Below are positions 8,878 through 60,021 of a stretch of DNA of 64,000 nt, in pieces (positions within the stretch are counted from its first letter, which is position 1; the number at the start of each line of letters is the position of its first letter). Under the pieces are notes generated by a model. It was given only the letters and a program-made list of their open reading frames with translations, ran no database searches and was not told the DNA's origin. This stretch comes from Escherichia phage PNJ1902, in the sequence record OK254197.1; one strand, 5' to 3'. Position numbers and translations under genes: made by a program.

Positions 8878-11208
8878 ATGAGCCATCGCATTGAAAAAGT
8901 AATTAAACGTGACGGTACTGTAGAAGACTTTGCTCCCGAAAAAATCAATGGTTGGGCAGAGTATGGTTGCAAAACAGTTGATGTAAGTTGGTCAGCCATT
9001 ACTATGGCTGCTCAAAAAACTCTGCCTAAAGGGGTTGTAGATTCCGACACTCTGATGGATGCATTAATTAAAGCTGCTGAAAGTCTTATTAAAGATAATC
9101 CAGCATATGATGTGCCAGCAAAGGAATTACGTCTTGCGCAAATGCGTAAACGCCTTTATGATTCTTTCGAACCACCTTCTCTACGCTTCTTCCATGATCA
9201 CATGGTTAGCGTAGGTGCATGGGAAGACATGAGTGCATGGATTACCGATGAGCAATTTGAAGCTCTGAATCAAGTTATCGACCATGATCGTGATCGTCTT
9301 TTTACTAGTGGTGGACTGAAACAGTTCTTTGATAAGTATTCCCGTCGTAACATAGCCACTGGTGAAATTTATGAAACTCCGCAGTTTGCCTACATGGGTA
9401 TGGCAATGGCGATGTTATCTCAACCTAACTGGACAATTCTAGATGCAATCGACCTCTACAACGCAATGTCACTCCACAAAATCAACGTTCCTACGCCGCC
9501 ACTGGTTGGTCTGCGCTCTAGTGACCGTGGATTTGCTAGTTGCTGTCTCGTGGATTCCACTGACACGTTGGATTCAATCGACACCGCCGAGCACATCGTC
9601 TTCAAAATGGTCGCAGCCAGAGCGGGAATCGGGTATCATCTTGAAAGCCGATCAATTGCTGATCCGGTGCGAAATGGGGCATTCCCGCATTCCGGAAAAC
9701 TGCCATATTATCGACACATTGACCGCTCAGTAAAGGCCAATACTCAGCAAACTCGTGGTGGTTCTGCCACAGTGTCTTATCCGTACTTCGACCCTGAAAT
9801 CATTCAATTGATGCAGGTTAAGCAACAACGTGCTACAGATGAGAATAAAATCGATAAGATGGATTATTCTCTGAGCTTTAACAATCTTTTGTTAAAACGT
9901 TATCTTAAAAACGAAGATATTACGCTAATGTCATACTTCTATGCTCCAGAAGTTCATGAAGCGTTTTATAGTGATGACGAGGCTAAATTTGAAGAAATCT
10001 ACGTGGCAGCGGAGAAACGTGTGGCATCTCTTACAAAGATCGACCACGAAGGAAAAACAGTTCCTGCAGCTCCTAAAGTCTCTGCAAAAGAAATCCTAGA
10101 TACTTGGCTACGTATCCGAATGGAAACAGGACGTATGTATGCTCACCACATTGGGGAATCTAATCGTCACGGTAACTTCCTTGATCCGATCCGTATGACA
10201 AACCTTTGTGTTGAAATTACTCAGCCTACACGCCCGTTCCATCACATTACAGAGCTGTACAAGACAAAAGAGCAGCTTGATCAAATGAAGCCGGAGGATA
10301 TTGGTGAAGTATCTCTGTGTAACTTAGGTGGTGTTGTACTTGGACGCATGGAATCTCTGGCTGAGTGGGAAAAAACTTGCTACATCCTTCTGAAATTCGT
10401 TGATACAATTATTGAAATTCAGGATTATCCGTTCCCAACTATGGAATATACGGCTAAGAAACGTCGTAATGTTGGTATTGGCCTGATGAACGCAGCAGGT
10501 GCAATGGCAGCAGAAGGTCTGGCTTACGAAGGTATTGAAGCTCGTAACTGGATTCACCGTGAGGCTGAAAAACTGTCTTACTTCCTGCATAAAGCCTCTG
10601 TACGCCTAGCTAAAGAACAGGGTGCATGTGAGTGGTTTGATCGTACTAAACCATCTAAAGGAATCCTGGTAATCGACACGTACAAGAAAACTGTTGATGA
10701 ACTGGTATCCGTAGGTCTAGAAATGGATTGGGAGTCTCTGCGTGCAGATATTCTGAAATATGGTATGCGTAACTCTGTTCTGACTGCTCAGATGCCAGGA
10801 GAAAGTTCTTCTGTTCTGTTAGGTGTTACTAACTCTATCGAACCACCTCGTAAGATTGTATCTATCAAGGGTAGTGCAGTAAATAAAGTAATTGCAATTG
10901 CTCCAGGTGCAACCGATTGGGAAACGTTAATGAGCTATAAACTGGCTTATGATGTAGATCGTATCGAGTGGATCAAGTGGGTAGCAACTATGCAGAAATT
11001 CTTCAGTCAGTCTATCAGTACGAATATGTACTATGACTACACCAAGTTTGAGAATGAAATCATTCCTGGCCCAGTAGTAGTTCGTGATTTCATGACTGCT
11101 GTTAAGTATGGATGGAAAACTTGGTATTATGCTAACTTCAATACCGCAAATGGTGGAGGTGCTGGAGAAGAAGCAGCCGGTTGTGCATCCGGTGGTTGTA
11201 CTATTTAA
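8878..11208 (+). CDS. nrdA: Ribonucleoside-diphosphate reductase large subunit (class Ia)
   Basis: ATP-cone N-terminus (IKRDGTVEDF), NLCVEI active-site region, C-terminal Cys pair; start taken at ATG 8878 after AAAGGAAAG. Confidence 0.85.
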   Translation: MSHRIEKVIKRDGTVEDFAPEKINGWAEYGCKTVDVSWSAITMAAQKTLPKGVVDSDTLMDALIKAAESLIKDNPAYDVPAKELRLAQMRKRLYDSFEPPSLRFFHDHMVSVGAWEDMSAWITDEQFEALNQVIDHDRDRLFTSGGLKQFFDKYSRRNIATGEIYETPQFAYMGMAMAMLSQPNWTILDAIDLYNAMSLHKINVPTPPLVGLRSSDRGFASCCLVDSTDTLDSIDTAEHIVFKMVAARAGIGYHLESRSIADPVRNGAFPHSGKLPYYRHIDRSVKANTQQTRGGSATVSYPYFDPEIIQLMQVKQQRATDENKIDKMDYSLSFNNLLLKRYLKNEDITLMSYFYAPEVHEAFYSDDEAKFEEIYVAAEKRVASLTKIDHEGKTVPAAPKVSAKEILDTWLRIRMETGRMYAHHIGESNRHGNFLDPIRMTNLCVEITQPTRPFHHITELYKTKEQLDQMKPEDIGEVSLCNLGGVVLGRMESLAEWEKTCYILLKFVDTIIEIQDYPFPTMEYTAKKRRNVGIGLMNAAGAMAAEGLAYEGIEARNWIHREAEKLSYFLHKASVRLAKEQGACEWFDRTKPSKGILVIDTYKKTVDELVSVGLEMDWESLRADILKYGMRNSVLTAQMPGESSSVLLGVTNSIEPPRKIVSIKGSAVNKVIAIAPGATDWETLMSYKLAYDVDRIEWIKWVATMQKFFSQSISTNMYYDYTKFENEIIPGPVVVRDFMTAVKYGWKTWYYANFNTANGGGAGEEAAGCASGGCTI

Positions 11209-47876: not shown

Positions 47877-48490
47877 TGTTTACACAACAACCTATTCAAG
47901 TAGTACCAGACCATGAACTGAACACATGGGATTATAGCTTTAAAGATTTAATTGCTACTGTACAATTCAAATCTATGAAGCTAACATTTGCACACAATGA
48001 CCTTAGAGCCTGTAAAGATCTTGAAAGTAAGCTCGAAGATGCTCGTAAGATTTTTGGCAAGGCTCGCATCCCAGCTGATAATCTAATTAACGCATTAATC
48101 GATGCAGGGTACAAACTTGTGAAGACTGAGGTGAACCGCCCTAGTACTCCAGTGACTATTAGAGATCCGTGGCAGTCAGGGACAATCTCAATGCTGAATA
48201 ACTCCGATAAAAGATTAATGTCGGATTTGCACAATGTTCCTTGTGGGGGTGTGGTAAGTAGTACGCAGTCATATAAGTTTGCGGAAGATTACGGCCCTTC
48301 TGTACAGTTGAAACATACTCAAGAAGCTTTTGAATCTGATATGCAAAGCGTAGCACCTGCGGATGCTGGAGTTTCTAGGAGTTCTGTTTGTACTATTCAT
48401 TTTAATAATCCTAGTAAACATGGAAGTTTAGAGGATGCTATTATGGAGGCGTTGGGAGCTGCTCTTAATGAAGATAAGAGAGGTAATTAA
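47876..48490 (+). CDS. Hypothetical protein
   Basis: ORF track. Confidence 0.5.
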   Translation: MFTQQPIQVVPDHELNTWDYSFKDLIATVQFKSMKLTFAHNDLRACKDLESKLEDARKIFGKARIPADNLINALIDAGYKLVKTEVNRPSTPVTIRDPWQSGTISMLNNSDKRLMSDLHNVPCGGVVSSTQSYKFAEDYGPSVQLKHTQEAFESDMQSVAPADAGVSRSSVCTIHFNNPSKHGSLEDAIMEALGAALNEDKRGN

Positions 48491-49215
48491 TGAGTATAAA
48501 AAAGAATTTAGCAGAGATTATTAAGTTAGCTAGAGCTTGTAATGGGAAATATGTTTCTCAGCTTAATGAACTAGAGGCACATGCAGTAGCATTTTGTGCA
48601 GAGTTTTATCCTGCATACCTTAATGCTAGTGGACAGCCCAAATATAATAAAGATGCAGGAGAAGTTACGTTAGCTCCTTCATATATTAGCTTGCGTCGTC
48701 TAATCCAAACTGTTGATCCTACTATTAAAGGATTCTCAGCAGATTCATTCCACGTCTTTGCAGATAAAGAACTCCCGTATTTTAAAGAAGGAAATGCAAA
48801 GTCATGTTTAGAATGTTATCCAAATATTCTGATGATTCCTCAAAAGCAATGTAAATACGATCATCTTCCTAGACTTACAAAGAAAGTAGAACCACCTTAT
48901 TCTTCTCTATCTGAATTAAAGCTAGGAATTGTATCTACACTTGCGCAGGTTCATCTAAGTATAGTTGACGACTCAACAACATCTAATCCTATTCTAGATG
49001 CTGCACACTTTGAAATTTTACGTGATCCTGAACAAGCTAGAAAAGTTGCAAAGTCTGTTAAGTTTGATATATCAACAATTCTTGACACTAAACAAGAAAC
49101 TAGACCTAGAGGAAGTGTAGATTATTCTGCACTAAATTCCGAGTCATCTTATTTAGCAACATTCCTTTTCATGGCGTCAAAAGGGGTTATTCTAAAGGTT
49201 AATAAAGATGGATGA
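48490..49215 (+). CDS. Hypothetical protein
   Basis: ORF track. Confidence 0.5.
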   Translation: MSIKKNLAEIIKLARACNGKYVSQLNELEAHAVAFCAEFYPAYLNASGQPKYNKDAGEVTLAPSYISLRRLIQTVDPTIKGFSADSFHVFADKELPYFKEGNAKSCLECYPNILMIPQKQCKYDHLPRLTKKVEPPYSSLSELKLGIVSTLAQVHLSIVDDSTTSNPILDAAHFEILRDPEQARKVAKSVKFDISTILDTKQETRPRGSVDYSALNSESSYLATFLFMASKGVILKVNKDG

Positions 49216-49936
49216 TTTACGTGCTGAAATTAATAAAAAGCTACGCGAGGAAGCCAGGAGGTTTCCTCTTAAAAACTTTTTGAAGTCAAATGGCTCTACT
49301 AATATAACGAAGATTAGGCAACTTCACCCTGACTTCCAACAAGAGGCCTTAAACCTTATCTTTATTAGGAAAGCTTTAAAAGTCCAGAAAGAAGAGTATG
49401 GGTATGAAAGAGTTAATTATAAGACAGCCAATCAGTTAGTAGAGATATGGTGCTATAAACACAAAGGATACTTTATGCAAACTGCTAGATCTCACCTAGA
49501 TGGGCACGGTTGTTTACAATGTGCTAGAGAAAGCAACCTCAATACACCTATCGAGAAACCGGAAGTAGAAGAAGATGTTCAGTTCCCCACATATCTCTAT
49601 ATCTTCTCTAATAAAGATCAGTCTAGGAAGAAATTAAAGACAAAGATTGGGGTTTCTAGAGAGCCACATCAAAGGTTTAAGAATCTAGAGTATGATAAAT
49701 TACGTGTGCCGGGTTTTGAAGATATGGAAGTATTTGGTATCTACCAATATAAGAAAGGATCGAAAGAACTCGCTTACAAAATAGAACACCAAGCACATAA
49801 ATTTTTCGAGAATAAATTTGCTAATCATTATAAATTCGATGGAGCAAAAGAGATATTCAACATTAAAGCTGTAGAGGCAGAAGAATATCTATTAAGTCAA
49901 GGTTGCATAAAAATTTACCCAACTCCAAACTCATGA
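49208..49936 (+). CDS. Zn-finger + GIY-YIG-like nuclease domain protein (putative homing endonuclease)
   Basis: N-terminal paralogous Zn-finger block; C-terminal YLYIFSNKD...KIGVS...R...Y pattern. Confidence 0.4.
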   Translation: MDDLRAEINKKLREEARRFPLKNFLKSNGSTNITKIRQLHPDFQQEALNLIFIRKALKVQKEEYGYERVNYKTANQLVEIWCYKHKGYFMQTARSHLDGHGCLQCARESNLNTPIEKPEVEEDVQFPTYLYIFSNKDQSRKKLKTKIGVSREPHQRFKNLEYDKLRVPGFEDMEVFGIYQYKKGSKELAYKIEHQAHKFFENKFANHYKFDGAKEIFNIKAVEAEEYLLSQGCIKIYPTPNS

Positions 49937-49963: not shown

Positions 49964-49993
49964 TTGACATTCGTGAGAATAATGTGTTATAAT
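49964..49993 (+). promoter_or_regulatory. Consensus sigma70 promoter (TTGACA-18-TATAAT) reading into ORF-free repeat region
   Basis: Read from sequence. Confidence 0.5.
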
Positions 49994-50344
49994 AATCTCA
50001 TAGATTAAAAACATCAACTTGTTTTTACCTCTAGGCCGTAGATTTACATCATTCCTCGTAGGAAAACACTTGATGACGGTTCTGCTCGCAGGTTCTCGTC
50101 AATTGTTCTTCCACACCGAGACTTAGGAGGATGTATCAAATCGCACGCGCCTAGAGGGGCTAACTCTCATGAAATGGGGGTATATTTACTTTTAAATAAC
50201 TAAAAATATTTAAAGGCAATATCTGTGTTCAAGATGATACACCGGTTGCCTCTCATCTGCTAGGATGGCACAACACTTTCTCCTAGACTCCTAAGTTTCT
50301 AGGAATAGTTGAACACTACCTCTAGCGTTTACACTAAACTTTAA

Positions 50345-51082
50345 ATCGGATTTGCACATGTTCTAGGGCAGTTTTTCACCTACTATAAATATCCTAGGCC
50401 GGTTTTCCTATACAGGGCGGTTATGGGGAGGGCGGTTATTTCTAGACAACATTTTTTGAAAACACATTTCTGGATTTTACTGTCGGATTTGCACATTGTG
50501 TTTCTAGAAATTTATGGTCGGATTTGCACAATTGCCTAAGTTTTTAGGAACATATAATCTCCTGAAAATGGCAGCATTATTTCGGGCCGAAGGCCCATGT
50601 TTGCCTGAGTTTTTGGAGCCACAGAAATTTTCACTTGTCAAACTATTTTGCCCCATTTTGCTAATAAAATTTTACTTTATCTCCTCTAATCTCAAATTAA
50701 CCTAAATCTTCTCAACTCTTCCCCAAAATCCCCGCAAATCGGGTGCCCCGCACCAAACATGCGCCCCTCCAGTTTCTCCTCTTATTTTCTCTCGCTCTCT
50801 CATCTTCTCCCCAAACCCACACAATCACACACCCTCCAATCGAAGTCACAAAAATCTTGTCGGATTCGCACATCTTAATCCTAGAAAAACCATGTCGGAT
50901 TTGCACATACCCCACAGGATTCGAACGCAGTTCGTGATTGCTGGAGTTTTTGGGAAAATTCATTGTCGGATTTGCACACTATAAAAATTTTTCGGGTCGG
51001 ATTTGCACACTACCAAAAATTGTCGGATTCGCACATACACGCCCGCACGTAACACCCGTGGAGCAATGTCGGATTTGCACAA
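50345..51082. repeat. Array of at least 9 dispersed direct repeats of a 14-bp motif GTCGGATT(T/C)GCACA (iteron-like)
   Basis: Copies near 50345, 50482, 50518, 50859, 50894, 50965, 50998, 51022, 51068. Confidence 0.8.
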
Positions 51083-51084
51083 AA

Positions 51085-51106
51085 GCGCAGGGCAATTGCC
51101 CTGCGC
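51085..51106. repeat. Perfect 22-bp palindrome gcgcagggcaattgccctgcgc
   Basis: Seen in sequence. Confidence 0.8.
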
Positions 51107-51109
51107 TAA

Positions 51110-51310
51110 AATACGAATGATAATAAGAATCATTCTCATTTAAAAAGCGGAATGAGAATGATAATAATTCGCATTTAGAAAGTGAAATGATAATCATTAT
51201 CATTTAAAAAGCGGAATGATTCTCATTTAAGAAGTGAAACGATTCTCATTTAAGAAGTGAAACGATTCTCATTTAGAAAGTGAAATGCAAATGATAATGA
51301 TTCTCATTTA
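51110..51310. repeat. Tandem and palindromic repeats resembling Fur boxes
   Basis: aatgataatcattatcatt palindrome; three tandem copies of about 22-bp unit gattctcatttaagaagtgaaac. Confidence 0.7.
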
Positions 51311-51339
51311 AGAATGGAAGTGAGAAACACTATTATTTA

Positions 51340-51520
51340 AGTTATCCACAGACTTATCAACAGCACGATTTGACTTGACAAAATTCTAGCCGTTTTGAAG
51401 CGTTATCAACAGACTTATCCACAGCTTATCCTACTGTATAAATATACAGTATTCCTACGCAGCGAATAATTCTAATATACCGCTAAAACGCTCTCAAACG
51501 CATTCTAACGCGTTTAATTT
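51340..51520. repeat. Left arm of imperfect inverted repeat with DnaA-box 9-mers and LexA-box-like palindrome
   Basis: TTATCCACA at 51342 and 51415, TTATCAACA at 51355 and 51403; CTGTATAAATATACAG at 51434-51449. Confidence 0.7.
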
Positions 51521-51641
51521 TGTTGGGGATACTAAAACAAGGGCAAAATTGGAGGAGGCTTGAAAATTAGTTAGCCCGCTAACGATCACACAAGGCGACA
51601 CGTAACACCCTAACCATTAGCAGGCTAACCATCGCGGGCGC

Positions 51642-51662
51642 GGTCAAATGAGAATGATTCTC
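51642..51662. promoter_or_regulatory. Fur-box-like 21-bp palindrome aaatgagaatgattctcattt
   Basis: Seen in sequence. Confidence 0.4.
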
Positions 51663-51707
51663 ATTTGAGAATTGGGGGCACTTCCAGATAGTTGCGCCCC
51701 GTGATTA

Positions 51708-51902
51708 TTAGTCGGGTAGTCGATGCGTGATTTTTTCCTCCTCCCCATAGGAATCTACCAAATACTGATAATAACCATCGTGATCATAAATCACTTTATC
51801 ATAATCGCCACGCTCGACCGCTTGTCGGTTTTCCGGCGTATCGGGCACGTAAAAAATATCAACCATTGTACTAGTTTTGGTTACAACAATTTTATTGCTC
51901 AT
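51708..51902 (-). CDS. Hypothetical small protein
   Basis: ORF track. Confidence 0.4.
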   Translation of the reverse strand: MSNKIVVTKTSTMVDIFYVPDTPENRQAVERGDYDKVIYDHDGYYQYLVDSYGEEEKITHRLPD

Positions 51903-52175
51903 AATAACGCCCTAGTAAATATATTTTTGCCAATAGTGGCGAACGTTATCGCCACCAGCGGAATCATTAGCGGCCTTACTATTACCAACGAAAGTATATA
52001 ATCTCATTAGTATTATTTTCCTTGCATTAATTTATATATAACGAACATCCCGCAAAACTGCCCTAATATAGTGCAGACAACAAGGGATAACACAATATTG
52101 CCGATCATGTTATAAGTAACCATACCAGTAATAAGGGATAGCGCATACCCTAGCAAAGCAATATAAACAGCCATA

Positions 52176-52526
52176 TTATTTACCTATTTTTCGAAACGCT
52201 GTTTCAATACTATCAGCCGTGGATTGAATATATGCGCCTTTCATTATCAGGCGCTCAGTGCATACTTTACGGAAAATATTAATAAAATCATCTTCATTTT
52301 CTGCGATTAATGCCTCACCCATAACCTGAACGTCGCAAGATGCAAAGGTCAAAAATTGAAACGCTAGTTCACGGGCAACGACCGCATTGATTTTATAATG
52401 CGCCTTTCCCTCGTAAATATTAATAACGCCCTTATATGCTGGCGAAAGCTGGTTTAAATAGTTTGCTAACAATGCCGGGCGGCAGTTAGCAACAAAACGA
52501 TTGCCCTCGTAAATGATCATTTGCAT
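52176..52526 (-). CDS. Hypothetical protein
   Basis: ORF track. Confidence 0.45.
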   Translation of the reverse strand: MQMIIYEGNRFVANCRPALLANYLNQLSPAYKGVINIYEGKAHYKINAVVARELAFQFLTFASCDVQVMGEALIAENEDDFINIFRKVCTERLIMKGAYIQSTADSIETAFRKIGK

Positions 52527-52644
52527 AACCTCCCGATCAGATAGCCTGATAAAAGCATAAAGACCCCCAACGAAATGGGATCATTCTTAAATAAGGTGGC
52601 GATAAAACCGCCAGCCATTGCAAGGAGAATAACAATAACGCTTT

Positions 52645-52857
52645 TCATAGTACCCCACGAAACGCAGCGTAAAAGGTGGCAAAATATTTAACCGTTTCAG
52701 TGATCACGTTGCCGCGCTTATCGAATTTCTTTTCAGTAACACGAAAAGCGTTTTTGTTACGTGCTACATATTCGATTTTACAGTCTGGGCGCTCGAACGT
52801 GTTAGCATCCACCAGCTTAAAACCTTTTGAACGTGCAAGAGAAACGTTGCGGATCAT
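52645..52857 (-). CDS. Hypothetical small protein
   Basis: ORF track. Confidence 0.4.
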   Translation of the reverse strand: MIRNVSLARSKGFKLVDANTFERPDCKIEYVARNKNAFRVTEKKFDKRGNVITETVKYFATFYAAFRGVL

Positions 52858-53058
52858 TTTTATTCTCCTTTACCAGTCATGCAGCCCAGCAGATAAGAAA
52901 ATGCAGCGATACCCGCGCCAATAATAACCGCGTGAACGTCGAAAGCTATTGCAAACAAAGATAAAATAGCGCCCAAGATACCCGCCAGAATAGCTCGAAA
53001 AATAACCATATGTAATACTCCCTAGTTAGTGGGGGCGAAAGTAACGCCCCGTTATTAA

Positions 53059-53322
53059 TTACATTAAAATAATTTTTGCCGCTTGTTTTTTGGTACAGTG
53101 TTCCGCCTTCAGGGTATCCAGCAAAAAGCCCGCCGTTTGCTGATCGATTTGATCATTATCATAAAGCGCCTGTATGGTAGTATAAGTTTTAGCGATGCCG
53201 TACTCTTGCACCATTTCCTGAATAATCCAGCGATTTGATACCCAGCCTTTACCAGTGAAAAGATGACTAGCAGAAGAATATGCAACCATTATAAGCCTCC
53301 AAAATTTTGGGAAAATTTTCAA
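53059..53322 (-). CDS. Hypothetical protein
   Basis: ORF track. Confidence 0.4.
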   Translation of the reverse strand: MKIFPKFWRLIMVAYSSASHLFTGKGWVSNRWIIQEMVQEYGIAKTYTTIQALYDNDQIDQQTAGFLLDTLKAEHCTKKQAAKIILM

Positions 53323-53519
53323 CCGTCCTCAAACGGTGTAAAGGCATTATAACAAAAAAGGCCACCATAAAAGGCGACCTTTACAAAACTTTACATTAGA
53401 TTATTTATTACTCGTTTTCGGTGTTATTGGTAAAAGTAGAAATATCGATACCTTTTACCATTTCCAGCATTGCCGCCACCTGGCCGCCGTGTTGGGTCTT
53501 TACTTTAATATTACCCCGC

Positions 53520-53705
53520 AGCGTTTAGCTCGTTAGAAAGCGTTTTAGGCCGCTTAAAATTGATTGCAGTCGTTAACACTACCTTTTTACCCTGTATATT
53601 TATACAGTAGGATAACCTGTGGATAAGTCTGTGTAAAAGTCCCTATATCGCCGCCTATCGTGTCAAGTCAAAAAGTGCTGTGGATAACGTTGTGGATAAC
53701 TTAAA
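53520..53705. repeat. Right arm of inverted repeat with DnaA boxes and LexA-box-like palindrome
   Basis: CTGTATATTTATACAG at 53592-53607; TGTGGATAA copies near 53617, 53681, 53693. Confidence 0.7.
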
Positions 53706-53890
53706 TGATAGTGGTTCTCACTAATTAATTTATGTAGTTATTATATCGTAAAATATAGTTAGTTGCCTAATAGGTTTTTAGAGTGATTATGAGTCAGCTA
53801 ATTAAACCTGAAAAACTCATTAGCTAGTCTGCTAATCATTTTGATATAATATAATAGAGATTAAAGTAATAACATAAGGAAACTATAACA

Positions 53891-54412
53891 ATGGGTAAAT
53901 ATAAAGAAATTAATTATAATGATATAAAAGATCACGTATATTATGATGAATCGTCGCCATCATTTCTACGATGGAAAGTAACGCGGGATAATATTTCAGC
54001 AGGTGATATTGCCGGTTGTATTAATTCCAGTGGTTATTATATCGTAACTATTAATAACGTTAGTTACCGAGTACATCGTATCATATGGGTATTATTTCAT
54101 AAAGAAATAGATAGCAATCTAACAATCGATCATATTGATCGTAACCGCGCTAATAATAACATTAAAAACTTACGCCTTGTTACTCATTCGCAGAATTGTA
54201 GTAACAAGGGTGATAGTTTGCGTGCTAATGGTTTACCTAGAAATATTTCATATCATTCTAATAATCGTGTTGATAGTAACGGGCGTAAATATATGACGGC
54301 TATGTTTCGAGTGCCTAATAGTAACAAGCGTGTTAGTAAGTCTGGTTATGATTTACAAGAGTTATTATTATGGCTTGAAACTAAAAAAGCTGAATTTGGA
54401 ATTGTCAATTAA
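53891..54412 (+). CDS. HNH homing endonuclease
   Basis: IDHIDRNRANNNIKNLRLVTHSQN (HNH_3-type motif); AT-rich relative to neighbours. Confidence 0.65.
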   Translation: MGKYKEINYNDIKDHVYYDESSPSFLRWKVTRDNISAGDIAGCINSSGYYIVTINNVSYRVHRIIWVLFHKEIDSNLTIDHIDRNRANNNIKNLRLVTHSQNCSNKGDSLRANGLPRNISYHSNNRVDSNGRKYMTAMFRVPNSNKRVSKSGYDLQELLLWLETKKAEFGIVN

Positions 54413-54925
54413 TTAATTTAATAAATTAAGTCATTTGATCTTGATTTTTAAAAGTCAAGACCTTTTCTAACTTTATTTCAATTTTGCTTTTGTTAAATAT
54501 TTGTTAAGTCCAATTTAAGGCATCTAGAACGCATTCTAAGCGCCTTAAAAACTAACCTAAGCAAGTGCATTGCTTATACGCCTTTATCGCCATCAGGAGG
54601 ATTCTAGATTTTGTCAATACCCCCAAAGCAAATATAAATGAAAAAATTACTTGCCTATCTGTCATGTTTTGTGGTATTCGCGCGCCCGTTTCTTTTAATT
54701 TTAATGCGCCGCGCCCAGGTCGCCGCACGGTGTCCGGTGGCGTTTGTCTTTACATTTCTTTACAAAAAGAAGGTTGCGCCTTTTTCGTTGTTTGTTATTA
54801 TTTATCTCGTAGGGCGGCAATGACGAACTACACGGCGGGAAGTTTACCGCCGCGCTCTTTAAAAATTGGGTATATCTTAAAGCCTATCGGCGGTAAACTT
54901 ATTTACATTATAAGGAATCGACGAT

Positions 54926-55084
54926 ATGACAACAATATTTAATGATCATCCAGCTACTCACGACACGATCGAAAAGATCGAGCAATGGGTAAAAAAGGCA
55001 AATGAATACTATGCTAATCATTCAGAAGCGGTAATAATCTGCAATGATGGCAAAGGTTTATACGCTTTGGAGGATCTCAAATAA
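54926..55084 (+). CDS. Hypothetical 52-aa protein
   Basis: ATG after AGGAATCGACGATATG; below ORF-track cutoff. Confidence 0.3.
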   Translation: MTTIFNDHPATHDTIEKIEQWVKKANEYYANHSEAVIICNDGKGLYALEDLK

Positions 55085-55284
55085 TGCAAACTTTATTGAT
55101 CACTGGTAAACCTAGCAAGGCACTGGATACCAGAACAAAAAATTTGTTGACAGTAGCGCAAAGATCGGTAAAATATCGATTTAAGCAGTACAAGAAAGGT
55201 CGCCAGCAGGGTCTGGAAATGATCTGGCGAAATATTATGATTGACCTGAAAGAAAATCATAAAAAATCTCAAAAAACTGTTTGA
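55084..55284 (+). CDS. Hypothetical small basic protein
   Basis: ORF track. Confidence 0.4.
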   Translation: MQTLLITGKPSKALDTRTKNLLTVAQRSVKYRFKQYKKGRQQGLEMIWRNIMIDLKENHKKSQKTV

Positions 55285-55514
55285 CAACCTAGCCGATAGG
55301 TTTTAAGATGTACCCAGTTCGATGAGAGCGATAACTTGATAAAATTTGACGGTCGGTGCTTACCATAATGCATCCCGCCCCCTAACTGGGATATAGCGGC
55401 CTGCGTGGAGTTCTTTAAATTGATTTAACTGGCGAGCGGATTGTTACTTATTACCTGCTACTATTTTCTAGCAGGTAATGCGAAACAATCCCCTAAATAA
55501 CTGGAGTTTATACT

Positions 55515-55766
55515 ATGCAAAACGTTACTAATGCGCCGAAAATTGGTCAATCCGTTTTTATCCCTTTCGTTACCAAAACGGATGAATTAACCGGAAAAGC
55601 CGAACGTATTAAAGGTGCGGCGCTTATGCCGTTTGATACAATCGATGCGGTATACGCTGAAAATGAACGCAGTAACAACGGAAAAACCGTTTATAACGTT
55701 CGCGTTAAATCCGGCGACGTTGTAAAGGTTGTTCAACGCAACGAAAAATGGGAAGCCGTTTTATAA
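55515..55766 (+). CDS. Hypothetical protein (pre-early-like module)
   Basis: ORF track; CTGGAG RBS; terminator hairpin downstream. Confidence 0.5.
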   Translation: MQNVTNAPKIGQSVFIPFVTKTDELTGKAERIKGAALMPFDTIDAVYAENERSNNGKTVYNVRVKSGDVVKVVQRNEKWEAVL

Positions 55767-55774
55767 ATTAGTGT

Positions 55775-55812
55775 TAACTTTATATGCCCCAGTAGTTCGG
55801 GGCATATAACGA
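55775..55812 (+). terminator. Rho-independent terminator
   Basis: atatgccccagtagttcggggcatat. Confidence 0.55.
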
Positions 55813-55863
55813 TTAACATTAGTTAATCTTATCCCTTAAATTAAATTAATTGGAGTTTTTACC

Positions 55864-56271
55864 ATGACTAACGCAAAAGCCGCAAAATTTTCTTGGAACG
55901 AAGAAAACACCCAAAAAGCTGTTACCATGTATCAGCAGTTAATCAATGAAAACGGTTTAGATTTCGCAAATAGCGACGGCCTGAAAGAGATTGCGAAAGC
56001 AGTTGGCGCGGCTTCTCCCGTGTCAGTTCGCTCAAAATTGACCAGCGCGAAAGCATATCAAAAAAGCGATAAGCCGCGCAAAGTTGGCGGCGGTAGTTCA
56101 ATCCGTAAAGCTCACTATGTACGAGTAATTGCAAAACACGCTATCGATTCCGGCATTATCAAGGACGCCGATGATCTGGCAAGCCTTGAAAGCGCAAAAT
56201 TAGAAACGTTGGACGCCGTGGCGCAACTGTTAGGCGTTGCCGATGAGGTAAAGCAGGCCGCAGGTGAATAA
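55864..56271 (+). CDS. Hypothetical protein (pre-early-like module)
   Basis: ORF track; TGGAG RBS. Confidence 0.5.
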   Translation: MTNAKAAKFSWNEENTQKAVTMYQQLINENGLDFANSDGLKEIAKAVGAASPVSVRSKLTSAKAYQKSDKPRKVGGGSSIRKAHYVRVIAKHAIDSGIIKDADDLASLESAKLETLDAVAQLLGVADEVKQAAGE

Positions 56272-56276
56272 ATTTA

Positions 56277-56310
56277 AATAGCGGGGGATTATTCCCCCGC
56301 TGTAATTCCC
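56277..56310 (+). terminator. Rho-independent terminator
   Basis: agcgggggattattcccccgct. Confidence 0.55.
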
Positions 56311-56330
56311 CTTTAATTGGAGTTATTAAA

Positions 56331-56528
56331 ATGATCTTTTACCCCGCTGAATCGCTCATTCTAGGCTTATTTATTATGGCGGCCTCATTATTGTTCGCTT
56401 ATTTTCAAAATGATTTAGATTCGTATTATTTTAAACGCAAATCTAAGTTAGCAAAGCGGTTAGGTCTGATTTGTTTTATTGCTGCCATTGTTTGTGGTGT
56501 TAGTTCTAGCCTGATGCCTATTAGTTGA
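56331..56528 (+). CDS. Small membrane protein
   Basis: ORF track; two hydrophobic segments. Confidence 0.45.
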   Translation: MIFYPAESLILGLFIMAASLLFAYFQNDLDSYYFKRKSKLAKRLGLICFIAAIVCGVSSSLMPIS

Positions 56529-56624
56529 ATGTTGCAAATTATAACGCCTATTATTGGAGGCGTTATATTTGGCAATATTGCCAATAATAAACGTTTTTTA
56601 ATCCCTTTAATGGAGTTTATTACT

Positions 56625-58289
56625 ATGATTTTTTCCGCAGAAAAACAAACCGTTATCCTGAAACTAGCCGCTGACTTTAATTTCTATGGTAAACGTCTGC
56701 GCGCTACTAAATTGGAGGTCTGCGACGATATTTCTAAAGCGGTTTATGATACTGCAAAGCATTCAACCGCTATCTGCGACTGGTTAGAAGCAAATAAACC
56801 AGCGAAACCGAAAACAGCGAAAGCGGTGAAAGCCATTAAAAACGACGAGCGCCCTGAAGCGGCTGGAATTATTTCCAGCACGGTGGAACAGTGGGAAGTA
56901 AAACAAGGCAAACGCTTTATTATTACGTCGATTCAGAATAATACTTTCCCGCATAAAAACTTTTTAGCCTCACTTGAACAATATGCTAAATTTATCGGCG
57001 CTGATTTGCTTGTTTCTAAGTATATTTATAATAAAAACGGTTTTCAGAATGGAGAAGGCGCAGACGGTGTAAAATATGCTTCCGCGTTTGATAAATATAT
57101 TTGCAGCAAAAACGTGTTTTTAAATAATCGCCGTTTTGCTTTCATGGCTGAAATTAATGTTTTGCCCACCGCGGATTATCCGCTATCTGGATTTGCAGAA
57201 ACTGCAACCGCGCTTAATCTGGAAGGTCTGGCAATTGGTCACGCTAAAATCACCGCCGAAAGCGTCCCAGCTCTCAAAGGTGAAGTAGTACGCCGCATGT
57301 ATTCAACCGGAACGGCAACGCTTAAAAACTACATTCAGCAAAAAGCAGGGCAAAAAGCGGAAGCATTACATAATTACGGCGCGCTTATTGTCGAGTTTGA
57401 CGAAGACGGTGAATTTTTTGTTCGCCAGCTTGAAACGATGGACGAAAGCGGCATGTTTTATGATCTTAATGTTTGCGCTACTCCCGCCGGATGTTTTGAA
57501 ACGTCGGGGCATGTTTTAGGCTTGCAGTATGGCGACGTGCACGCTGAAAAATTAGATGATGAGTGCGCCGCAGCGTCATGGGCTGGCGACAATAGTTTGC
57601 TCGATATTCTCAAACCAAAATATCAGTTTATCCATGACGTGCATGATTTTACATCACGCAATCATCACAACCGCGCGTCTGGTGTATTTCTAGCGAAACA
57701 GTATGCAGCCGGACGTGATAAAGTTCTGGATGATCTCATCGACACCGGGCGAGTGCTGGAATCAATGGAGCGCGATTTTAGTCAAACGATCATTGTCGAA
57801 TCGAATCACGATTTGGCGTTATCTCGTTGGCTTGATGATCGCAATGCTAACATTAAAGACGATCCAGCCAACGCCGAACTGTACCACCGCCTTAATGCCG
57901 CTATCTACGCAGCTATTGCAAAGCAGGATGATACTTTCAACGTGTTAGATTATGCGTTGCGTACGGTTGCAGGTTGCGAGTTTAACGCGATTTTCCTAAC
58001 GACTGATCAATCTTTCAAGATTGCAGGCATTGAATGCGGCGTACACGGTCACAACGGCATTAACGGCAGCCGTGGCAATCCTAAGCAGTTTAAGAAATTG
58101 GGCAAGTTAAACACGGGGCACACCCACACCGCCAGCATATACGGCGGCGTATATACGGCGGGCGTTGCTGGTTCCCTAGATATGGGCTATAACGTTGGCG
58201 CGTCAAGCTGGACGCAAACGCATTTAATTACCTATGCAAACGGTCAGCGCACTTTGATTGACTTTAAAAACGGTAAATTCTTTGCGTAA
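56625..58289 (+). CDS. A1: A1-like pre-early protein with calcineurin-like metallophosphatase/nuclease domain
   Basis: GDVHAE, HD, SNHD, HGHNG, GHTHT motifs; about 554 aa from ATG 56625 after GGAG; followed by A2-like and dmp-like genes. Confidence 0.55.
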   Translation: MIFSAEKQTVILKLAADFNFYGKRLRATKLEVCDDISKAVYDTAKHSTAICDWLEANKPAKPKTAKAVKAIKNDERPEAAGIISSTVEQWEVKQGKRFIITSIQNNTFPHKNFLASLEQYAKFIGADLLVSKYIYNKNGFQNGEGADGVKYASAFDKYICSKNVFLNNRRFAFMAEINVLPTADYPLSGFAETATALNLEGLAIGHAKITAESVPALKGEVVRRMYSTGTATLKNYIQQKAGQKAEALHNYGALIVEFDEDGEFFVRQLETMDESGMFYDLNVCATPAGCFETSGHVLGLQYGDVHAEKLDDECAAASWAGDNSLLDILKPKYQFIHDVHDFTSRNHHNRASGVFLAKQYAAGRDKVLDDLIDTGRVLESMERDFSQTIIVESNHDLALSRWLDDRNANIKDDPANAELYHRLNAAIYAAIAKQDDTFNVLDYALRTVAGCEFNAIFLTTDQSFKIAGIECGVHGHNGINGSRGNPKQFKKLGKLNTGHTHTASIYGGVYTAGVAGSLDMGYNVGASSWTQTHLITYANGQRTLIDFKNGKFFA

Positions 58290-58291
58290 TT

Positions 58292-58335
58292 AAATTATTC
58301 CCTAGCGGCTTGAAATATAGCCGCTATTATAGGAG
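58292..58335 (+). terminator. Terminator-like hairpin
   Basis: tagcggcttgaaatatagccgcta. Confidence 0.45.
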
Positions 58336-58342
58336 TCAAAAA

Positions 58343-58600
58343 ATGAAAGTTATTCTACCCAAAACACTAGACGAAAAAGCGTTTATTTCCCCCGATGAAA
58401 TGGAATCCGATAAAGTTTACAGCTTCGGGCCTATCCTAGCCGCCAAAACTAATACTGATGGAATTATTACAGTCGATTATCGTGATAATGATATTGTTCC
58501 TTTTGACGATGATGACGCTTTTTATGAGTGGTTAAGCGATAATAATTTACCCGTAAGTGGTGAATTAACGCCGTATCAGATGCAAATCATTATCAAATAA
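58343..58600 (+). CDS. Hypothetical acidic protein
   Basis: ATG 58343 after AGGAGT; track ORF 58310 start lies in the hairpin. Confidence 0.45.
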   Translation: MKVILPKTLDEKAFISPDEMESDKVYSFGPILAAKTNTDGIITVDYRDNDIVPFDDDDAFYEWLSDNNLPVSGELTPYQMQIIIK

Positions 58601-58638
58601 TTTAAATCCCCTATTAAACTAATTGGAGTTTTATAACT

Positions 58639-59031
58639 ATGAAAAAGCAAAATATTCCATTCGATCGCGCTCAATCTTCCATTGTTCTGGTTTATTCTAA
58701 TGGTGAACGTTACCACGTCGAGGCGGGGCACGTTATTGATGACCTATTAGATTTCAATGACGCATTGCAGGTTACAACATTTGCATATATGCAAGGCAAA
58801 CTAACAAGCCATATTAAAGCAAAAGGTGTTTATGTTGACACGATGAAACAAGAAACGATTATCATCGACGCAGTAAAATCCGGTCTAGCCTTTGCAGTTG
58901 TCGCGCCTTGTCCGGCTTGTCTTGATGATCAACTAATGAGCGCGAAGGTATTTACATGCGCGGGCATTCGTTCCCATGTATCCGGCGAAGATATTAGTTA
59001 TATCGCTGATGCGTTGGCGTATGGTCTTTGA
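58639..59031 (+). CDS. A2: A2-like pre-early protein, putative
   Basis: 130 aa, position between A1-like and dmp-like genes; assignment by synteny and size only. Confidence 0.35.
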   Translation: MKKQNIPFDRAQSSIVLVYSNGERYHVEAGHVIDDLLDFNDALQVTTFAYMQGKLTSHIKAKGVYVDTMKQETIIIDAVKSGLAFAVVAPCPACLDDQLMSAKVFTCAGIRSHVSGEDISYIADALAYGL

Positions 59032-59039
59032 TAGTTGAT

Positions 59040-59070
59040 TTATTATTGCCCGCTTATAAATAGCGGGCAA
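59040..59070 (+). terminator. Terminator-like hairpin
   Basis: ttgcccgctataaatagcgggcaa. Confidence 0.5.
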
Positions 59071-59111
59071 TGCTGGATAAACTACATCCCTTTAATGGAG
59101 AACGTAACAAA

Positions 59112-59846
59112 ATGAATCAAGTTAAAACGAATATTACCCGTAATTTCCCGCATATTTCCCGCGTCATGATTTGGGATCTTGATGGCACTATCGTTAATTC
59201 ATTCCATCGTGTCGCGCCTTGCTTTGATAGCGATGGGAATTTAGATTTAAATAAGTATAAAAATGAAGCGTGTAAGCATGATTTAATAATGCAAGATACT
59301 TTATTGCCTTTGGTGGAATATATGCGCCAATGCATGAATGACGCAAATACTTTAAACATTATTTGCACCGCTCGACTGATGAGCAAATCAGATTATTACT
59401 TCCTACGCAAACAAGGTTTGCGCGGTCGTGGTGATAGTAATATCCGTGTATTTTCCCGCGATACACTGCATAAATATTTTGAAGCTGATAAGGTTAGCGA
59501 GATATACCACAGCAAGGACGCAGTTTATAAAAGTTATTATTTTGAGCTATTCAAGCAACTATATCCGAACGCTGATTTTACAATGATTGATGATCATAAA
59601 GGTGTATTATCAGCGGCGGCATCATACGGATTTAAAACGCTGGACGCGCAAGCCGTTAATGATATTCTATCAATCGGCGTGGCATTGATAGGCGGAACCT
59701 TTATTGATGAATCTCTCGATGATGATAATGATTATCAGTTCCTAGCTGATCGCTTAAAGTTATGTTGGGAAAGTATGACAGAAGAAGAACGCGCAGAATA
59801 TAGTTGCAGCCCGCAACAATATATCGAGAAATTAAAAGTTGCGTAA
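59112..59846 (+). CDS. dmp: 5'-deoxyribonucleotidase (HAD-type), Dmp-like
   Basis: IWDLDGTIVNS (HAD motif I DxDGT); 244 aa from ATG 59112 after GGAGAA. Confidence 0.55.
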   Translation: MNQVKTNITRNFPHISRVMIWDLDGTIVNSFHRVAPCFDSDGNLDLNKYKNEACKHDLIMQDTLLPLVEYMRQCMNDANTLNIICTARLMSKSDYYFLRKQGLRGRGDSNIRVFSRDTLHKYFEADKVSEIYHSKDAVYKSYYFELFKQLYPNADFTMIDDHKGVLSAAASYGFKTLDAQAVNDILSIGVALIGGTFIDESLDDDNDYQFLADRLKLCWESMTEEERAEYSCSPQQYIEKLKVA

Positions 59847-59857
59847 TAATTAAAGTT

Positions 59858-59900
59858 GAGATAGTTTCACCTTGCAATTAAAATGGTTGCAGGGTGAAAC
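59858..59900 (+). terminator. Rho-independent terminator hairpin
   Basis: gtttcaccttgcaattaaaatggttgcagggtgaaac. Confidence 0.55.
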
Positions 59901-60021
59901 AGTTAGCATGGTAATAGTAACGGGGGTGGCGGTTAGCAGACTAAGTATTCTCCCCCTAGCCACTGCACCCACCCACGCGTACGTAATCCAAAGAATTTGA
60001 CAAAAGTCATTTTAGTGCTAA

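What the first reader, a model, noticed from the sequence alone, without database searches (positions are those of the whole stretch)
50000..51700. ORF-free repeat landscape: at least 9 iteron-like 14-bp repeats, a 22-bp perfect palindrome and Fur-box-like tandem palindromes, behind a consensus promoter
About 1.7 kb has no credible ORF. The motif GTCGGATT(T/C)GCACA recurs at least 9 times at irregular spacing (50345-51082). It is followed by gcgcagggcaattgccctgcgc and then by AATGA(G/T)AAT-N-ATT(C/A)TCATT palindromes and three tandem 22-bp units (51110-51310), with another such palindrome at 51642. A TTGACA-18-TATAAT promoter at 49964-49993 reads into the region. In T5 the end of the first-step-transfer DNA is described as a repeat- and palindrome-rich injection stop signal locus, so this may be the equivalent. 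The specific iteron and Fur-like organisation suggests protein-binding arrays (host Fur or a phage factor), a replication origin or a DNA-transfer pause site.
Basis: partly seen in the sequence, partly recalled or inferred. Interest (0 to 1): 0.85.

Follow-up and report, generated by a model that had tools for sequence, protein, structure and literature searches.

The report
T5-type injection stop signal region
This gene-free, repeat-rich stretch matches, feature for feature, the long-known "injection stop signal" region at the inner end of the terminal repeat of phage T5 and its relatives. It is therefore not new, although how it works is still unsolved, and it holds consensus-grade sites for three host proteins (DnaA, and predicted Fur and LexA).

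Summary
The window is a T5-like phage (Demerecviridae; about 94% identical to Salmonella phages SP01, SPC35 and SE11), read in reverse relative to the T5 map. Window 50345-51700 aligns colinearly with T5 AY587007 9194-10409. GenBank annotates that stretch as "injection stop signal (iss)", and Davison (2020) calls it "Repeat Region 3".

The features map one to one:
- The nine GTCGGATT(T/C)GCACA repeats are T5 direct repeat D, copies 1-9.
- The perfect palindrome is palJ, which carries the 7.9% single-strand nick motif.
- The AATGAGAAT-N-ATTCTCATT array is direct repeat C with palindromes E-I.

The terminal repeat ends at about 50616, between the two clusters of D repeats.

The Fur resemblance is strong. 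There is a perfect 7-1-7 site, and there are three perfect AATGANAATNATTNTCATT sites. Hits come in pairs 6 bp apart, and the array is conserved as far as a Vibrio phage. Neither Fur nor LexA appears in the T5 literature I could search. Similar Fur-like arrays occur in unrelated rV5-like and phi92-like myoviruses.

The mechanism of the stop has not been tested experimentally. My best inference is a hub of binding sites for host and phage proteins that controls DNA entry and processing of the genome end.

The parts
49964..49993 (+). Consensus sigma-70 promoter (TTGACA-18-TATAAT with a TG extension), in unique DNA, pointing towards the terminal repeat
   Evidence: Scores 12/12. TTGACA and TGTTAnAAT are conserved in SPC35, T5, Klebsiella IME260 and Erwinia KEY. 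No conserved ORF lies downstream. A terminator-like hairpin sits at 50163-50181.
50346..50531 (+). D-repeat cluster B: three copies of (G)TCGGATTTGCACA (T5 DRD9, 8 and 7), outside the terminal repeat
   Evidence: they map to T5 10397-10409, 10260-10274 and 10225-10238.
50584..50596 (.). Small GC hairpin (GGGCC-GAA-GGCCC) about 20 bp outside the repeat end
   Evidence: Invariant in T5 and SPC35. Klebsiella IME260 has a hairpin of different sequence (CGGTG-ACA-CACCG) at the same place.
50614..50616 (.). Inner (right, in T5 orientation) boundary of the long terminal repeat, which is also the physical right end of the virion DNA
   Evidence: The annotated repeat ends of T5 (10139), SPC35 (9573) and My1 (12854) fall in the same alignment column within 2 bp, and that of IME260 within 20 bp. 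The other repeat end is at about 59969.
50650..50860 (-). Purine- and G-run-rich tract (C-rich on the + strand), including T5 direct repeat A copies 2 and 3 (50691-50729)
   Evidence: GC skew of -0.55 to -0.73. Mapped. G-run-rich in all genera. No canonical G-quadruplex motif.
50860..51082 (+). D-repeat cluster A: six copies of GTCGGATT(T/C)GCACA (T5 DRD6 to DRD1), inside the terminal repeat
51084..51107 (.). 24-bp perfect palindrome, equal to T5 palJ. It contains CCCTGCGC (51085-51092), which T5 annotates as 'major single-stranded nick 1, 7.9%'. In T5 orientation it also looks like a terminator hairpin followed by CTTTTGTG.
   Evidence: The Rfam PrrF and Hrs12 models align their terminators to it. 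CCTGCGC is kept in the Klebsiella and Erwinia phages although the palindrome is not.
51115..51313 (.). Array of seven Fur-box-like units (T5 direct repeat C copies 1-4 and palindromes E-I), 28% GC, with unit lengths of 23, 29 and 35 bp
   Evidence: Four to seven such units sit at the same position in six genera, including a Vibrio phage.
51319..51449 (.). 131-bp IRD'-spacer-IRC' element with DnaA boxes TTATCCACA (51342), TTATCAACA (51354), TTATCAACA (51403), TTATCCACA (51415) and a degenerate TTATCCTAC (51426)
   Evidence: (12-bp period). Described by Davison.
51432..51451 (.). palD, TACTGTATAAATATACAGTA: a 19/20 match to the LexA SOS-box consensus
   Evidence: 2 hits in the window against 0.01 expected. 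Conserved at 17-19/20 in all seven Demerecviridae compared.
51496..51580 (.). Terminator-like hairpins: 51496-51515 on the + strand, and the counterpart of T5 palC (51567-51580), which would end the last pre-early operon on the - strand
51644..51668 (.). Isolated 25-bp Fur-box-like palindrome TCAAATGAGAATgATTCTCATTTGA
   Evidence: 0 mismatches. Conserved together with the flanking GACCGCGCCCG in SPC35 and in Vibrio phage SJ1; absent from T5.
53592..53722 (.). Inverted partner of the 131-bp element (T5 IRC-spacer-IRD, 'Repeat Region 2'). It carries three TTATCCACA boxes and a second LexA-like box (53590-53609) and lies between the divergent pre-early operons.
   Evidence: (80% complementary).
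48221..48233 (+). Tenth exact D-repeat copy, inside a 204-aa gene
   Evidence: Also present in SPC35.
55864..58289 (+). Homologues of A2 (55864-56271) and A1 (56529-58289), the two pre-early proteins needed for second-step transfer
   Evidence: phrog_1725 'DNA binding protein' (E 2e-51) and phrog_1745 'DNA transfer protein' (E 2e-243).

Best explanation
What it is (shown). This is the orthologue of the bacteriophage T5 'injection stop signal' region (iss; Repeat Region 3). The iss is a conserved non-coding module that straddles the inner end of the roughly 9.4-kb terminal repeat (window about 50616-59969). That repeat is the DNA injected first.

Order of elements, read in T5 orientation (window - strand):
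- the terminator of the last pre-early operon
- a LexA-type box (palD)
- tandem DnaA boxes, a 52-bp spacer, then more DnaA boxes
- seven Fur-box-like units
- the 7.9% nick motif inside a GC palindrome
- six D iterons
- a purine-rich tract and the repeat end
- a GC hairpin
- three more D iterons
- a conserved promoter that points back into the region

How it most likely works (inferred, about 0.3). The part that enters the cell last during first-step transfer carries high-affinity sites for abundant host proteins that are already present: DnaA, and by prediction Fur and LexA. Because the stop needs no new protein synthesis, these host proteins are the plausible builders of a nucleoprotein complex at the membrane channel. 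That complex would hold the DNA and block RNA polymerase from reading into, or pulling in, the rest of the genome. The block would last until the pre-early proteins A1 and A2 release it.

The D iterons change sequence in the Vibrio phage while the host-type boxes do not. They also always flank the repeat end. They are therefore more likely sites for a phage protein, either the A2 DNA-binding protein or the terminase, that marks the genome end for cutting, packaging or release.
For: Identity:
- About 94% identity to T5-like phages.
- Colinear alignment to T5, with all 30 annotated T5 features mapped, including 9 of 9 D repeats, palJ with the nick, and the repeat end.
- The 131-nt inverted partner lies 2.1 kb inside the repeat.
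- A1 and A2 homologues are present.
- The literature describes exactly this architecture and says its function is untested.

Host-factor hub:
- DnaA boxes are enriched: 9 against 3.3 expected, and five of them lie in the two inverted-repeat arms.
- Fur-like hits are confined to this module and are far above chance.
- Fur-like hits come in pairs 6 bp apart and unit lengths step by 6 bp. That is the signature of real Fur site clusters (PMC2189734).
- The Rfam PrrF model aligns its promoter Fur box to 51180-51214.
- The LexA box matches 19/20 against 0.01 expected.
- All three box types keep their sequence from Escherichia phages to a Vibrio phage. The D repeat, in contrast, is replaced by TGTGAGTGCGGATTCT x5 in that phage.

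D repeats and the genome end:
- The annotated repeat end falls between the two D clusters in T5 (6 and 3 copies), IME260 (5 and 5) and My1 (4 and 3), at the same alignment column.
Against: - No binding or genetic experiment exists for any element.
- Proteins that bind DNA already inside the cell would be expected to favour entry, not block it. The physical cause of the stop is therefore not explained.
- From general knowledge, T5 plates on recA hosts, so RecA-driven removal of LexA cannot be required.
- The seven Fur-like units are copies of one ancestral unit. The statistics therefore reduce to one palindromic unit that resembles the Fur box.
- Consensus matching over-predicts Fur binding (PMC2189734).
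- One Fur-like hit of 17/19 lies inside the dmp coding sequence and is probably a codon artefact. This shows that such matches can arise without function.
- The palJ hairpin is not conserved beyond close relatives.
Confidence: 0.8

Rival explanations
1. Iteron-type replication origin. DnaA boxes, an AT-rich unwinding region (the 28% GC array) and nine iterons bound by a phage initiator would together fire replication from each terminal repeat.
For: The order 'DnaA boxes, AT-rich stretch, direct repeats' is that of iteron plasmid origins such as pSC101, P1 oriR and F ori2 (general knowledge). It is present here. T5-like phages encode a protein annotated 'replication origin binding protein' (T5.108). 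Its homologue runs off the window start and scores above the Pfam Herpes_ori_bp cut-off.
Against: Iteron spacing is irregular (26-342 bp) and not a multiple of the helical repeat. No initiator gene is adjacent. The Pfam match covers only the helicase core (profile positions 46-197 of 820), not a DNA-binding domain. Davison cites electron-microscopy mapping of T5 origins near the genome centre. Three of the iterons lie outside the terminal repeat.
Confidence: 0.1
2. Genome-end (packaging) signal. The two D-repeat clusters, the purine-rich tract and the GC hairpin form the terminase recognition and cutting site for the right end of the genome. By last-in-first-out logic that end is packaged first. 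On this view their link to the injection stop is incidental. This explanation is compatible with the main one for the other elements.
For: The annotated repeat end sits at one conserved column between the two clusters in T5, SPC35 and My1, and within 20 bp of it in IME260. The geometry of repeated boxes on both sides of a cut resembles SPP1 pacL/pacR and lambda cosB/cosQ (general knowledge). The repeats differ in the Vibrio phage, as expected for a phage-protein site.
Against: No D repeat lies near the other repeat end at about 59969. Some annotated ends may have been copied from T5 by homology. The terminase small subunit and its binding site are not defined for T5.
Confidence: 0.3
3. Fur decoy or iron-responsive switch. 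The Fur-like array really binds host Fur and serves iron physiology. Either it titrates Fur as genomes multiply, which would de-repress iron uptake for phage ribonucleotide reductases, or it makes a local promoter respond to iron. On this view it has no role in the DNA stop.
For: The sequence evidence for Fur sites is. Similar arrays of 4-6 units occur in ORF-free regions of unrelated myoviruses: Phapecoctavirus ECO340P2 and tuntematon, Justusliebigvirus ECGD1 and Certrevirus phiTE. The ECO340P2 array matches 467 phage records, and no protein is shared between two of those myovirus loci (ECO340P2, tuntematon) and the window. T5 encodes ribonucleotide reductases (nrdD).
Against: No gene lies downstream of the array. 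Fur is abundant, so one or two genome copies cannot titrate it. There is no experimental link between Fur and T5 growth in the searched literature. The myovirus arrays could instead be a shared mobile DNA module.
Confidence: 0.25
4. Structure-only signal. The palindromes and the 7.9% nick form cruciforms, hairpins or a flexible break that stalls DNA in the tail or channel without any sequence-specific protein. The resemblance to host-factor sites would then be coincidental.
For: There are many palindromes and the nick motif lies exactly at palJ. The estimated shear point, T5 9618, maps to about window 51134, beside palJ.
Against: Complete DNA release occurs in vitro into FhuA proteoliposomes (cited), so the DNA alone does not stop. 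palJ is not a palindrome in the Klebsiella, Erwinia or Pectobacterium phages. Coincidence would have to explain three different consensus-grade box types conserved across genera.
Confidence: 0.1

Closest known systems
Bacteriophage T5 injection stop signal (iss), also called Repeat Region 3 (GenBank AY543070 9140-10149; AY587007 9194-10409; Heusterspreute et al. 1987; Wang et al. 2005; Davison 2015, 2020)
   Same: Same position at the inner end of the terminal repeat and the same order of all elements. These are nine D repeats, palJ with the nick motif, the C repeats with palindromes E-I, the 131-bp IRD'-spacer-IRC' with paired DnaA boxes and its inverted partner, palD, the A repeats and the repeat end. 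Identity to T5 is about 80-90% over the region.
   Different: Only details differ. The window has two extra 23-bp units in the array and an extra Fur-like palindrome at 51644 that T5 lacks. Its palJ is a perfect 24-bp palindrome, whereas T5 palJ is 17 bp and imperfect. It also has a tenth D repeat inside a neighbouring gene.
Clusters of E. coli Fur operators (for example the fhuF and iucA promoters; Chen et al. 2007, PMC2189734)
   Same: Matches to the 19-bp and 7-1-7 consensus, overlapping sites offset by 6 bp, and a cluster length of about 200 bp against up to 140 bp for host clusters.
   Different: The array does not overlap the promoter of a downstream gene. It consists of seven tandem units on phage DNA. 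Binding is untested.
Iteron-plasmid origins (pSC101, P1 oriR, F ori2)
   Same: DnaA boxes, then an AT-rich stretch, then direct repeats of 14-19 bp.
   Different: Repeat spacing is irregular, no adjacent initiator gene is present, and the repeats straddle a genome end.
Terminase recognition sites with repeated boxes flanking the cut (SPP1 pacL-pacC-pacR; lambda cosQ-cosN-cosB)
   Same: Repeated short boxes lie on both sides of a conserved genome end.
   Different: No biochemical evidence exists for T5. The other repeat end has no such boxes.
Stepwise genome entry of phage T7
   Same: Only a leading segment enters first, and the rest waits for an active process. Terminators and roadblocks at the end of the entered DNA would matter for any transcription-driven entry.
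   Different: T7 entry is pulled by RNA polymerase. T5 needs A1 and A2 and has a discrete cis-acting stop site. No evidence shows that transcription drives T5 entry.

Membership tests
T5-family injection stop signal / Repeat Region 3 | Non-coding region at the inner end of the long terminal repeat of a Demerecviridae genome | tested here: met
   Best hits are T5-like phages. The repeat boundary maps to about 50616 and the other end to about 59969. No conserved ORF is present.
T5-family injection stop signal / Repeat Region 3 | Colinear set of annotated elements: D repeats (about 9), palJ with the nick motif, C repeats with palindromes E-I, palD | tested here: met
   One-to-one mapping of all AY587007 features.
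T5-family injection stop signal / Repeat Region 3 | 131-bp IRD'-spacer-IRC' with paired DnaA boxes and an inverted partner inside the repeat | tested here: met
   Arms at 51319-51449 and 53592-53722, 131 nt, 80% complementary. DnaA boxes in both arms.
T5-family injection stop signal / Repeat Region 3 | A1 and A2 pre-early genes present in the same repeat | tested here: met
   phrog_1745 and phrog_1725 matches.
T5-family injection stop signal / Repeat Region 3 | DNA transfer actually pauses here until A1 and A2 are made | not testable with these tools
   Needs blender-shear or time-resolved sequencing of infected cells.
Fur operator cluster | Match to the Fur consensus (19-mer, 7-1-7) above chance | tested here: met
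   Perfect 7-1-7 site at 51188. Six of the window's eight hits of at least 15/19 fall in the array against 0.5 expected per window. Zero of 2000 local shuffles reached the observed counts.
Fur operator cluster | Overlapping sites offset by 3 or 6 bp | tested here: met
   Hit pairs at 51113/51119, 51154/51160, 51183/51189, 51287/51293 and 51644/51650. Criterion from PMC2189734.
Fur operator cluster | Overlaps the promoter of a regulated gene | tested here: inconclusive
   Only weak promoter-like matches (9/12) lie inside the array, and there is no downstream gene.
Fur operator cluster | Fur binds in vitro or in vivo | not testable with these tools
   Needs gel shift, footprinting or ChIP.
LexA (SOS) box | CTGT-N8-ACAG within TACTG(TA)5CAGTA | tested here: met
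   19/20 at 51432-51451 and 17/20 at 53590-53609, against 0.01 expected. Conserved across genera. The consensus is taken from general knowledge. Binding is untested.
Iteron-type replication origin | Regularly phased iterons next to a cognate initiator gene | tested here: not met
   Spacings of 26-342 bp. The neighbouring genes are a homing-endonuclease-like ORF and small pre-early ORFs.
Iteron-type replication origin | DnaA boxes plus an AT-rich region | tested here: met
PrrF sRNA (Rfam RF00444) | Score at or above the gathering threshold (90 bits) | tested here: not met
   38.2 bits. Only the promoter Fur box and the terminator align.

The most novel reading that the evidence does not exclude
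The T5-family injection stop region may be built largely from consensus-grade operators for three host regulators placed in a fixed order: a LexA box, tandem DnaA boxes and a seven-unit Fur-box array. Only the DnaA boxes have been noted before. On this reading the phage uses pre-existing host DNA-binding proteins to hold or insulate its half-injected genome, or to sense the host's iron or SOS state. Similar Fur-box arrays in unrelated rV5-like and phi92-like myoviruses would then point to a wider, undescribed use of host Fur by virulent enterobacterial phages.
Probability: 0.25. Interest if true: 0.7.

Novelty: already known. Interest (0 to 1): 0.3.

Why it matters
As a discovery it does not matter much. 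The locus is annotated in GenBank and reviewed in the literature.

It matters as a pointer. How T5 stops after injecting 8% of its DNA has been open since 1968, and recent papers (2023-2026) still say that no functional test of these repeats exists.

Three observations here turn a descriptive "repeat landscape" into specific, cheap experiments:
- Besides the known DnaA boxes, the region carries near-perfect Fur and LexA sites that are conserved from Escherichia phages to a Vibrio phage.
- The D iterons always bracket the terminal-repeat end.
- Fur-like arrays recur in unrelated myoviruses.

The experiments are footprints, infections of fur, lexA and dnaA mutant hosts, and box mutants made in both repeat copies.

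Tried and rejected
1. Hidden protein gene. All ORFs of 59-83 aa in 50.5-51.2 kb are interrupted in T5 and/or SPC35.
2. Known RNA family. Only sub-threshold Rfam hits were found. The best, PrrF at 38 bits against a 90-bit threshold, is explained by a Fur box plus a terminator-like hairpin.
3. G-quadruplex in the G-run tract next to the repeat end. No canonical motif exists, even with loops of up to 12 nt.
4. Origin borrowed from the host. The DnaA/LexA core has no similarity to E. coli chromosomes.
5. BLAST of the Fur-like array against E. coli genomes as a test for Fur. It gave only 20-31-bp matches, in intergenic or prophage DNA, and was uninformative.
6. A shared phage protein to explain the same array in myoviruses. 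There were no tblastn hits between two of the 3-kb myovirus loci (ECO340P2 and tuntematon) and the window. This is a limited test.
7. LexA as a lock opened by SOS induction after A1-driven host DNA degradation. This is attractive, but T5 grows on recA hosts (general knowledge), so it cannot be essential.
8. D repeat as a UL9-type origin-binding-protein box. The D repeat contains TTCGCAC, as does HSV box I (from memory). However, the Pfam match of the T5.108 homologue covers only the helicase core, so this remains a lead and not a test.
9. The 17/19 Fur match at 59718. It lies in a run of Asp and Asn codons in dmp and is probably coincidental.
10. I could not obtain Davison 2015 or Heusterspreute 1987. 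Whether they mention Fur or LexA is unchecked.
Full report
**Observation.**
- From the stop codon at 49936 to the first minus-strand gene at 51708 there is no conserved ORF. The five ORFs of 59-83 aa inside it all acquire stops or frameshifts in T5 and/or SPC35.
- TCGGATTYGCACA occurs nine times in one orientation between 50346 and 51082. A tenth copy lies at 48221, inside a gene. The ten matches compare with 0.12 expected.
- A perfect palindrome lies at 51084-51107. It is 24 bp long, not 22.
- Next comes a 28%-GC array of seven units with periods of 23, 29 and 35 bp at 51115-51313, and an isolated 25-bp palindrome at 51644-51668.
- The promoter at 49964-49993 is a 12/12 consensus with a TG extension.

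**Identity.** The 1.9-kb region matches 456 phage records by megablast, nearly all labelled as Salmonella, Escherichia or Klebsiella phages; the top hits are T5-like. The best matches are about 94% identical, and in SPC35 the match lies under "left TR; comprises first-step-transfer (FST) DNA". The window is in reverse orientation relative to the T5 map.

AY543070 annotates 9140-10149 as "injection stop signal (iss)". AY587007 annotates each repeat and palindrome separately. A three-way alignment is colinear, and every T5 feature projects onto a window feature:
- D repeat copies 1-9 onto the nine iterons
- palJ and "major single-stranded nick 1, 7.9%" onto the perfect palindrome (CCCTGCGC at 51085-51092)
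- C repeat copies 1-4 and palindromes E-I onto the AT-rich array
- direct repeat B and IRD'/IRC' onto two pairs of DnaA boxes
- palD onto 51432-51451
- the end of the left terminal repeat onto 50616

The 131-nt inverted partner (Repeat Region 2) is at 53592-53722. The other repeat end is at about 59969. Homologues of A1 and A2 lie inside the repeat.

Davison's preprint describes exactly this "Matryoshka" of nine D repeats, palindromes C-J and eight DnaA boxes. It notes that the region overruns the repeat by 270 bp. The finding is therefore a correct re-discovery of a known locus.

[quoted passage not shown] **What the comparison adds.** I aligned the region from six genera: T5, SPC35, Klebsiella IME260, Erwinia KEY, Pectobacterium My1 and Vibrio SJ1. 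The order of elements is the same in all. Three points stand out.

*1. The Fur resemblance is strong and specific.*
- There is a perfect 7-1-7 site at 51188.
- There are three perfect matches to AATGANAATNATTNTCATT. I recall that form as the vibrio Fur consensus.
- Six of the window's eight hits of at least 15/19 to the classic box fall in the array, against 0.5 expected. The other two are overlapping hits in a GAT/AAT codon run of dmp.
- Local shuffles never reach the observed counts.
- Hits come in pairs 6 bp apart and unit lengths step by 6 bp. This is the hallmark of real Fur clusters.
- Rfam's PrrF model, which includes that gene's promoter Fur box, aligns to the array below threshold.
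- Four to seven such units are present in every genus.
- The seven units are copies of one ancestral unit, so the statistics reduce to one unit that resembles the Fur box.
- I found no mention of Fur in Davison 2020 or in the searchable literature on T5.

*2. palD is a near-consensus LexA box.* It matches the LexA SOS-box consensus at 19/20, and a second copy sits in the inverted partner. It is conserved at 17-19/20 in all seven phages. This too is unmentioned in the literature I could search.

*3. The D iterons behave differently from the host-type boxes.* In the Vibrio phage they are replaced by a different repeat. In T5, IME260 and My1 the annotated repeat end falls between the two D clusters, at or within 20 bp of one alignment column; SPC35's annotated end maps to the same column. 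A small GC hairpin next to the end is kept as a hairpin with a different sequence in the Klebsiella phage.

**Mechanism.** Nothing here has been shown experimentally. The stop needs no new protein synthesis, and it does not occur in vitro with FhuA liposomes (cited). It therefore needs something from the cell.

The last DNA to enter carries sites for three abundant host proteins. Davison's estimated shear point, T5 9618, maps to about window 51134. My best inference (about 0.3) is this:
- DnaA, Fur and LexA assemble on this stretch at the membrane channel. This extends Davison's DnaA model.
- Together with the terminators, they anchor the DNA and shield the un-entered part from RNA polymerase until A1 and A2 act.
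- The D iterons serve a phage protein at the genome end.

The weak point is that cytoplasmic binding should favour entry rather than block it.

**Rivals.**
- An iteron origin has the right grammar of DnaA boxes, AT-rich DNA and iterons. Against it are the irregular spacing, the lack of an adjacent initiator gene and origins mapped elsewhere.
- A packaging signal for the D clusters is compatible with the main view.
- A Fur decoy or iron switch.
- A purely structural stall at the nick and palindromes.

**Side observation.** The Fur-like array has BLAST matches in unrelated myoviruses, including Phapecoctavirus, Justusliebigvirus, Certrevirus and Vequintavirinae. The ECO340P2 array used as a query matches 467 phage records. 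In each myovirus the array sits in an ORF-free region beside other repeats and a GC-rich element that contains CCTGCGC-like sequence. Two of these loci (ECO340P2, tuntematon) share no protein with the window. Whether this reflects convergence on host Fur or a mobile DNA module is open.

**Verdict.** Novelty: already known. Interest is low to moderate. It comes only from the unreported Fur and LexA consensus sites and from the geometry of the D repeats around the genome end, which make an old open question directly testable.

Noticed in passing
window 51432-51451 and 53590-53609: T5 'palindrome D' matches the LexA SOS-box consensus TACTG(TA)5CAGTA at 19/20. A second copy (17/20) lies in the inverted partner. 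Both are conserved in all seven Demerecviridae compared. Neither Davison 2020 nor the searchable literature mentions it.
   Followed up: partly
L004 about 1500-1670 (Escherichia phage ECO340P2); L005 about 420-550 (ECGD1); L006 about 1460-1580 (Pectobacterium phiTE); L016 1501-1677 (tuntematon): Unrelated large myoviruses carry arrays of 4-6 AATGA(G/T)AATnATT(C/A)TCATT palindromes in ORF-free regions of about 0.8 kb. Other direct repeats (phiTE: GGGTCTCGATC) and a GC-rich element sit beside them. The ECO340P2 array matches 467 phage records.
   Followed up: partly
window 50614-50616: The annotated terminal-repeat ends of T5, SPC35 and My1 map to the same alignment column (GTGGCTC|CAAAAAC here). 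That column lies between the two D-repeat clusters and next to a conserved GC hairpin (50584-50596). This suggests a sequence-specific end-forming site.
   Followed up: partly
window 48221-48233: A tenth exact copy of the D repeat (TGTCGGATTTGCACAAT) lies inside a 204-aa gene of unknown function, 2.1 kb from the nearest other copy. SPC35 has it as well.
   Followed up: partly
window 49964-50345: A consensus extended -10 promoter, conserved across genera, points into the repeat region with no conserved ORF behind it. A terminator-like hairpin at 50163-50181 would give a transcript of about 190 nt. The first 250 nt downstream are not conserved in T5, but the last 100 nt before the D repeat at 50346 are.
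   Followed up: partly
window 50000-50500: CTAG, normally rare, is most frequent here: 9 in 500 bp against a mean of 2.2, the top bin of the window. It often appears as TYCTAGRA a few bases from a D repeat.
   Followed up: no
window 59718-59742: The best classic Fur-box match in the window (17/19, GATGATGATAATGATTATC) lies inside the dmp (5'-deoxyribonucleotidase) gene, in a run of Asp and Asn codons. It is probably coincidental, but it is conserved in SPC35.
   Followed up: partly
window 1-1854 (- strand): An open frame of 618 aa runs off the window start. It is the homologue of T5.108, 'putative replication origin binding protein'. Its Pfam Herpes_ori_bp match covers only the helicase core. 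Its DNA target is unknown.
   Followed up: partly
window 49208-49936: The gene that abuts the region carries a T5orf172 (GIY-YIG-like) domain and matches homing-endonuclease PHROGs. SPC35 has a different gene in this position, so it is probably a mobile insertion next to the repeat region.
   Followed up: no
L007 (E. coli O157:H7 prophage, between the lysis and terminase genes) and L009 (Stx-type prophage, between the holin and nanS-p genes): Exact or near-exact Fur-box-like 21-29-mers identical to units of the T5-type array occur in intergenic DNA of lambdoid prophages.
   Followed up: no
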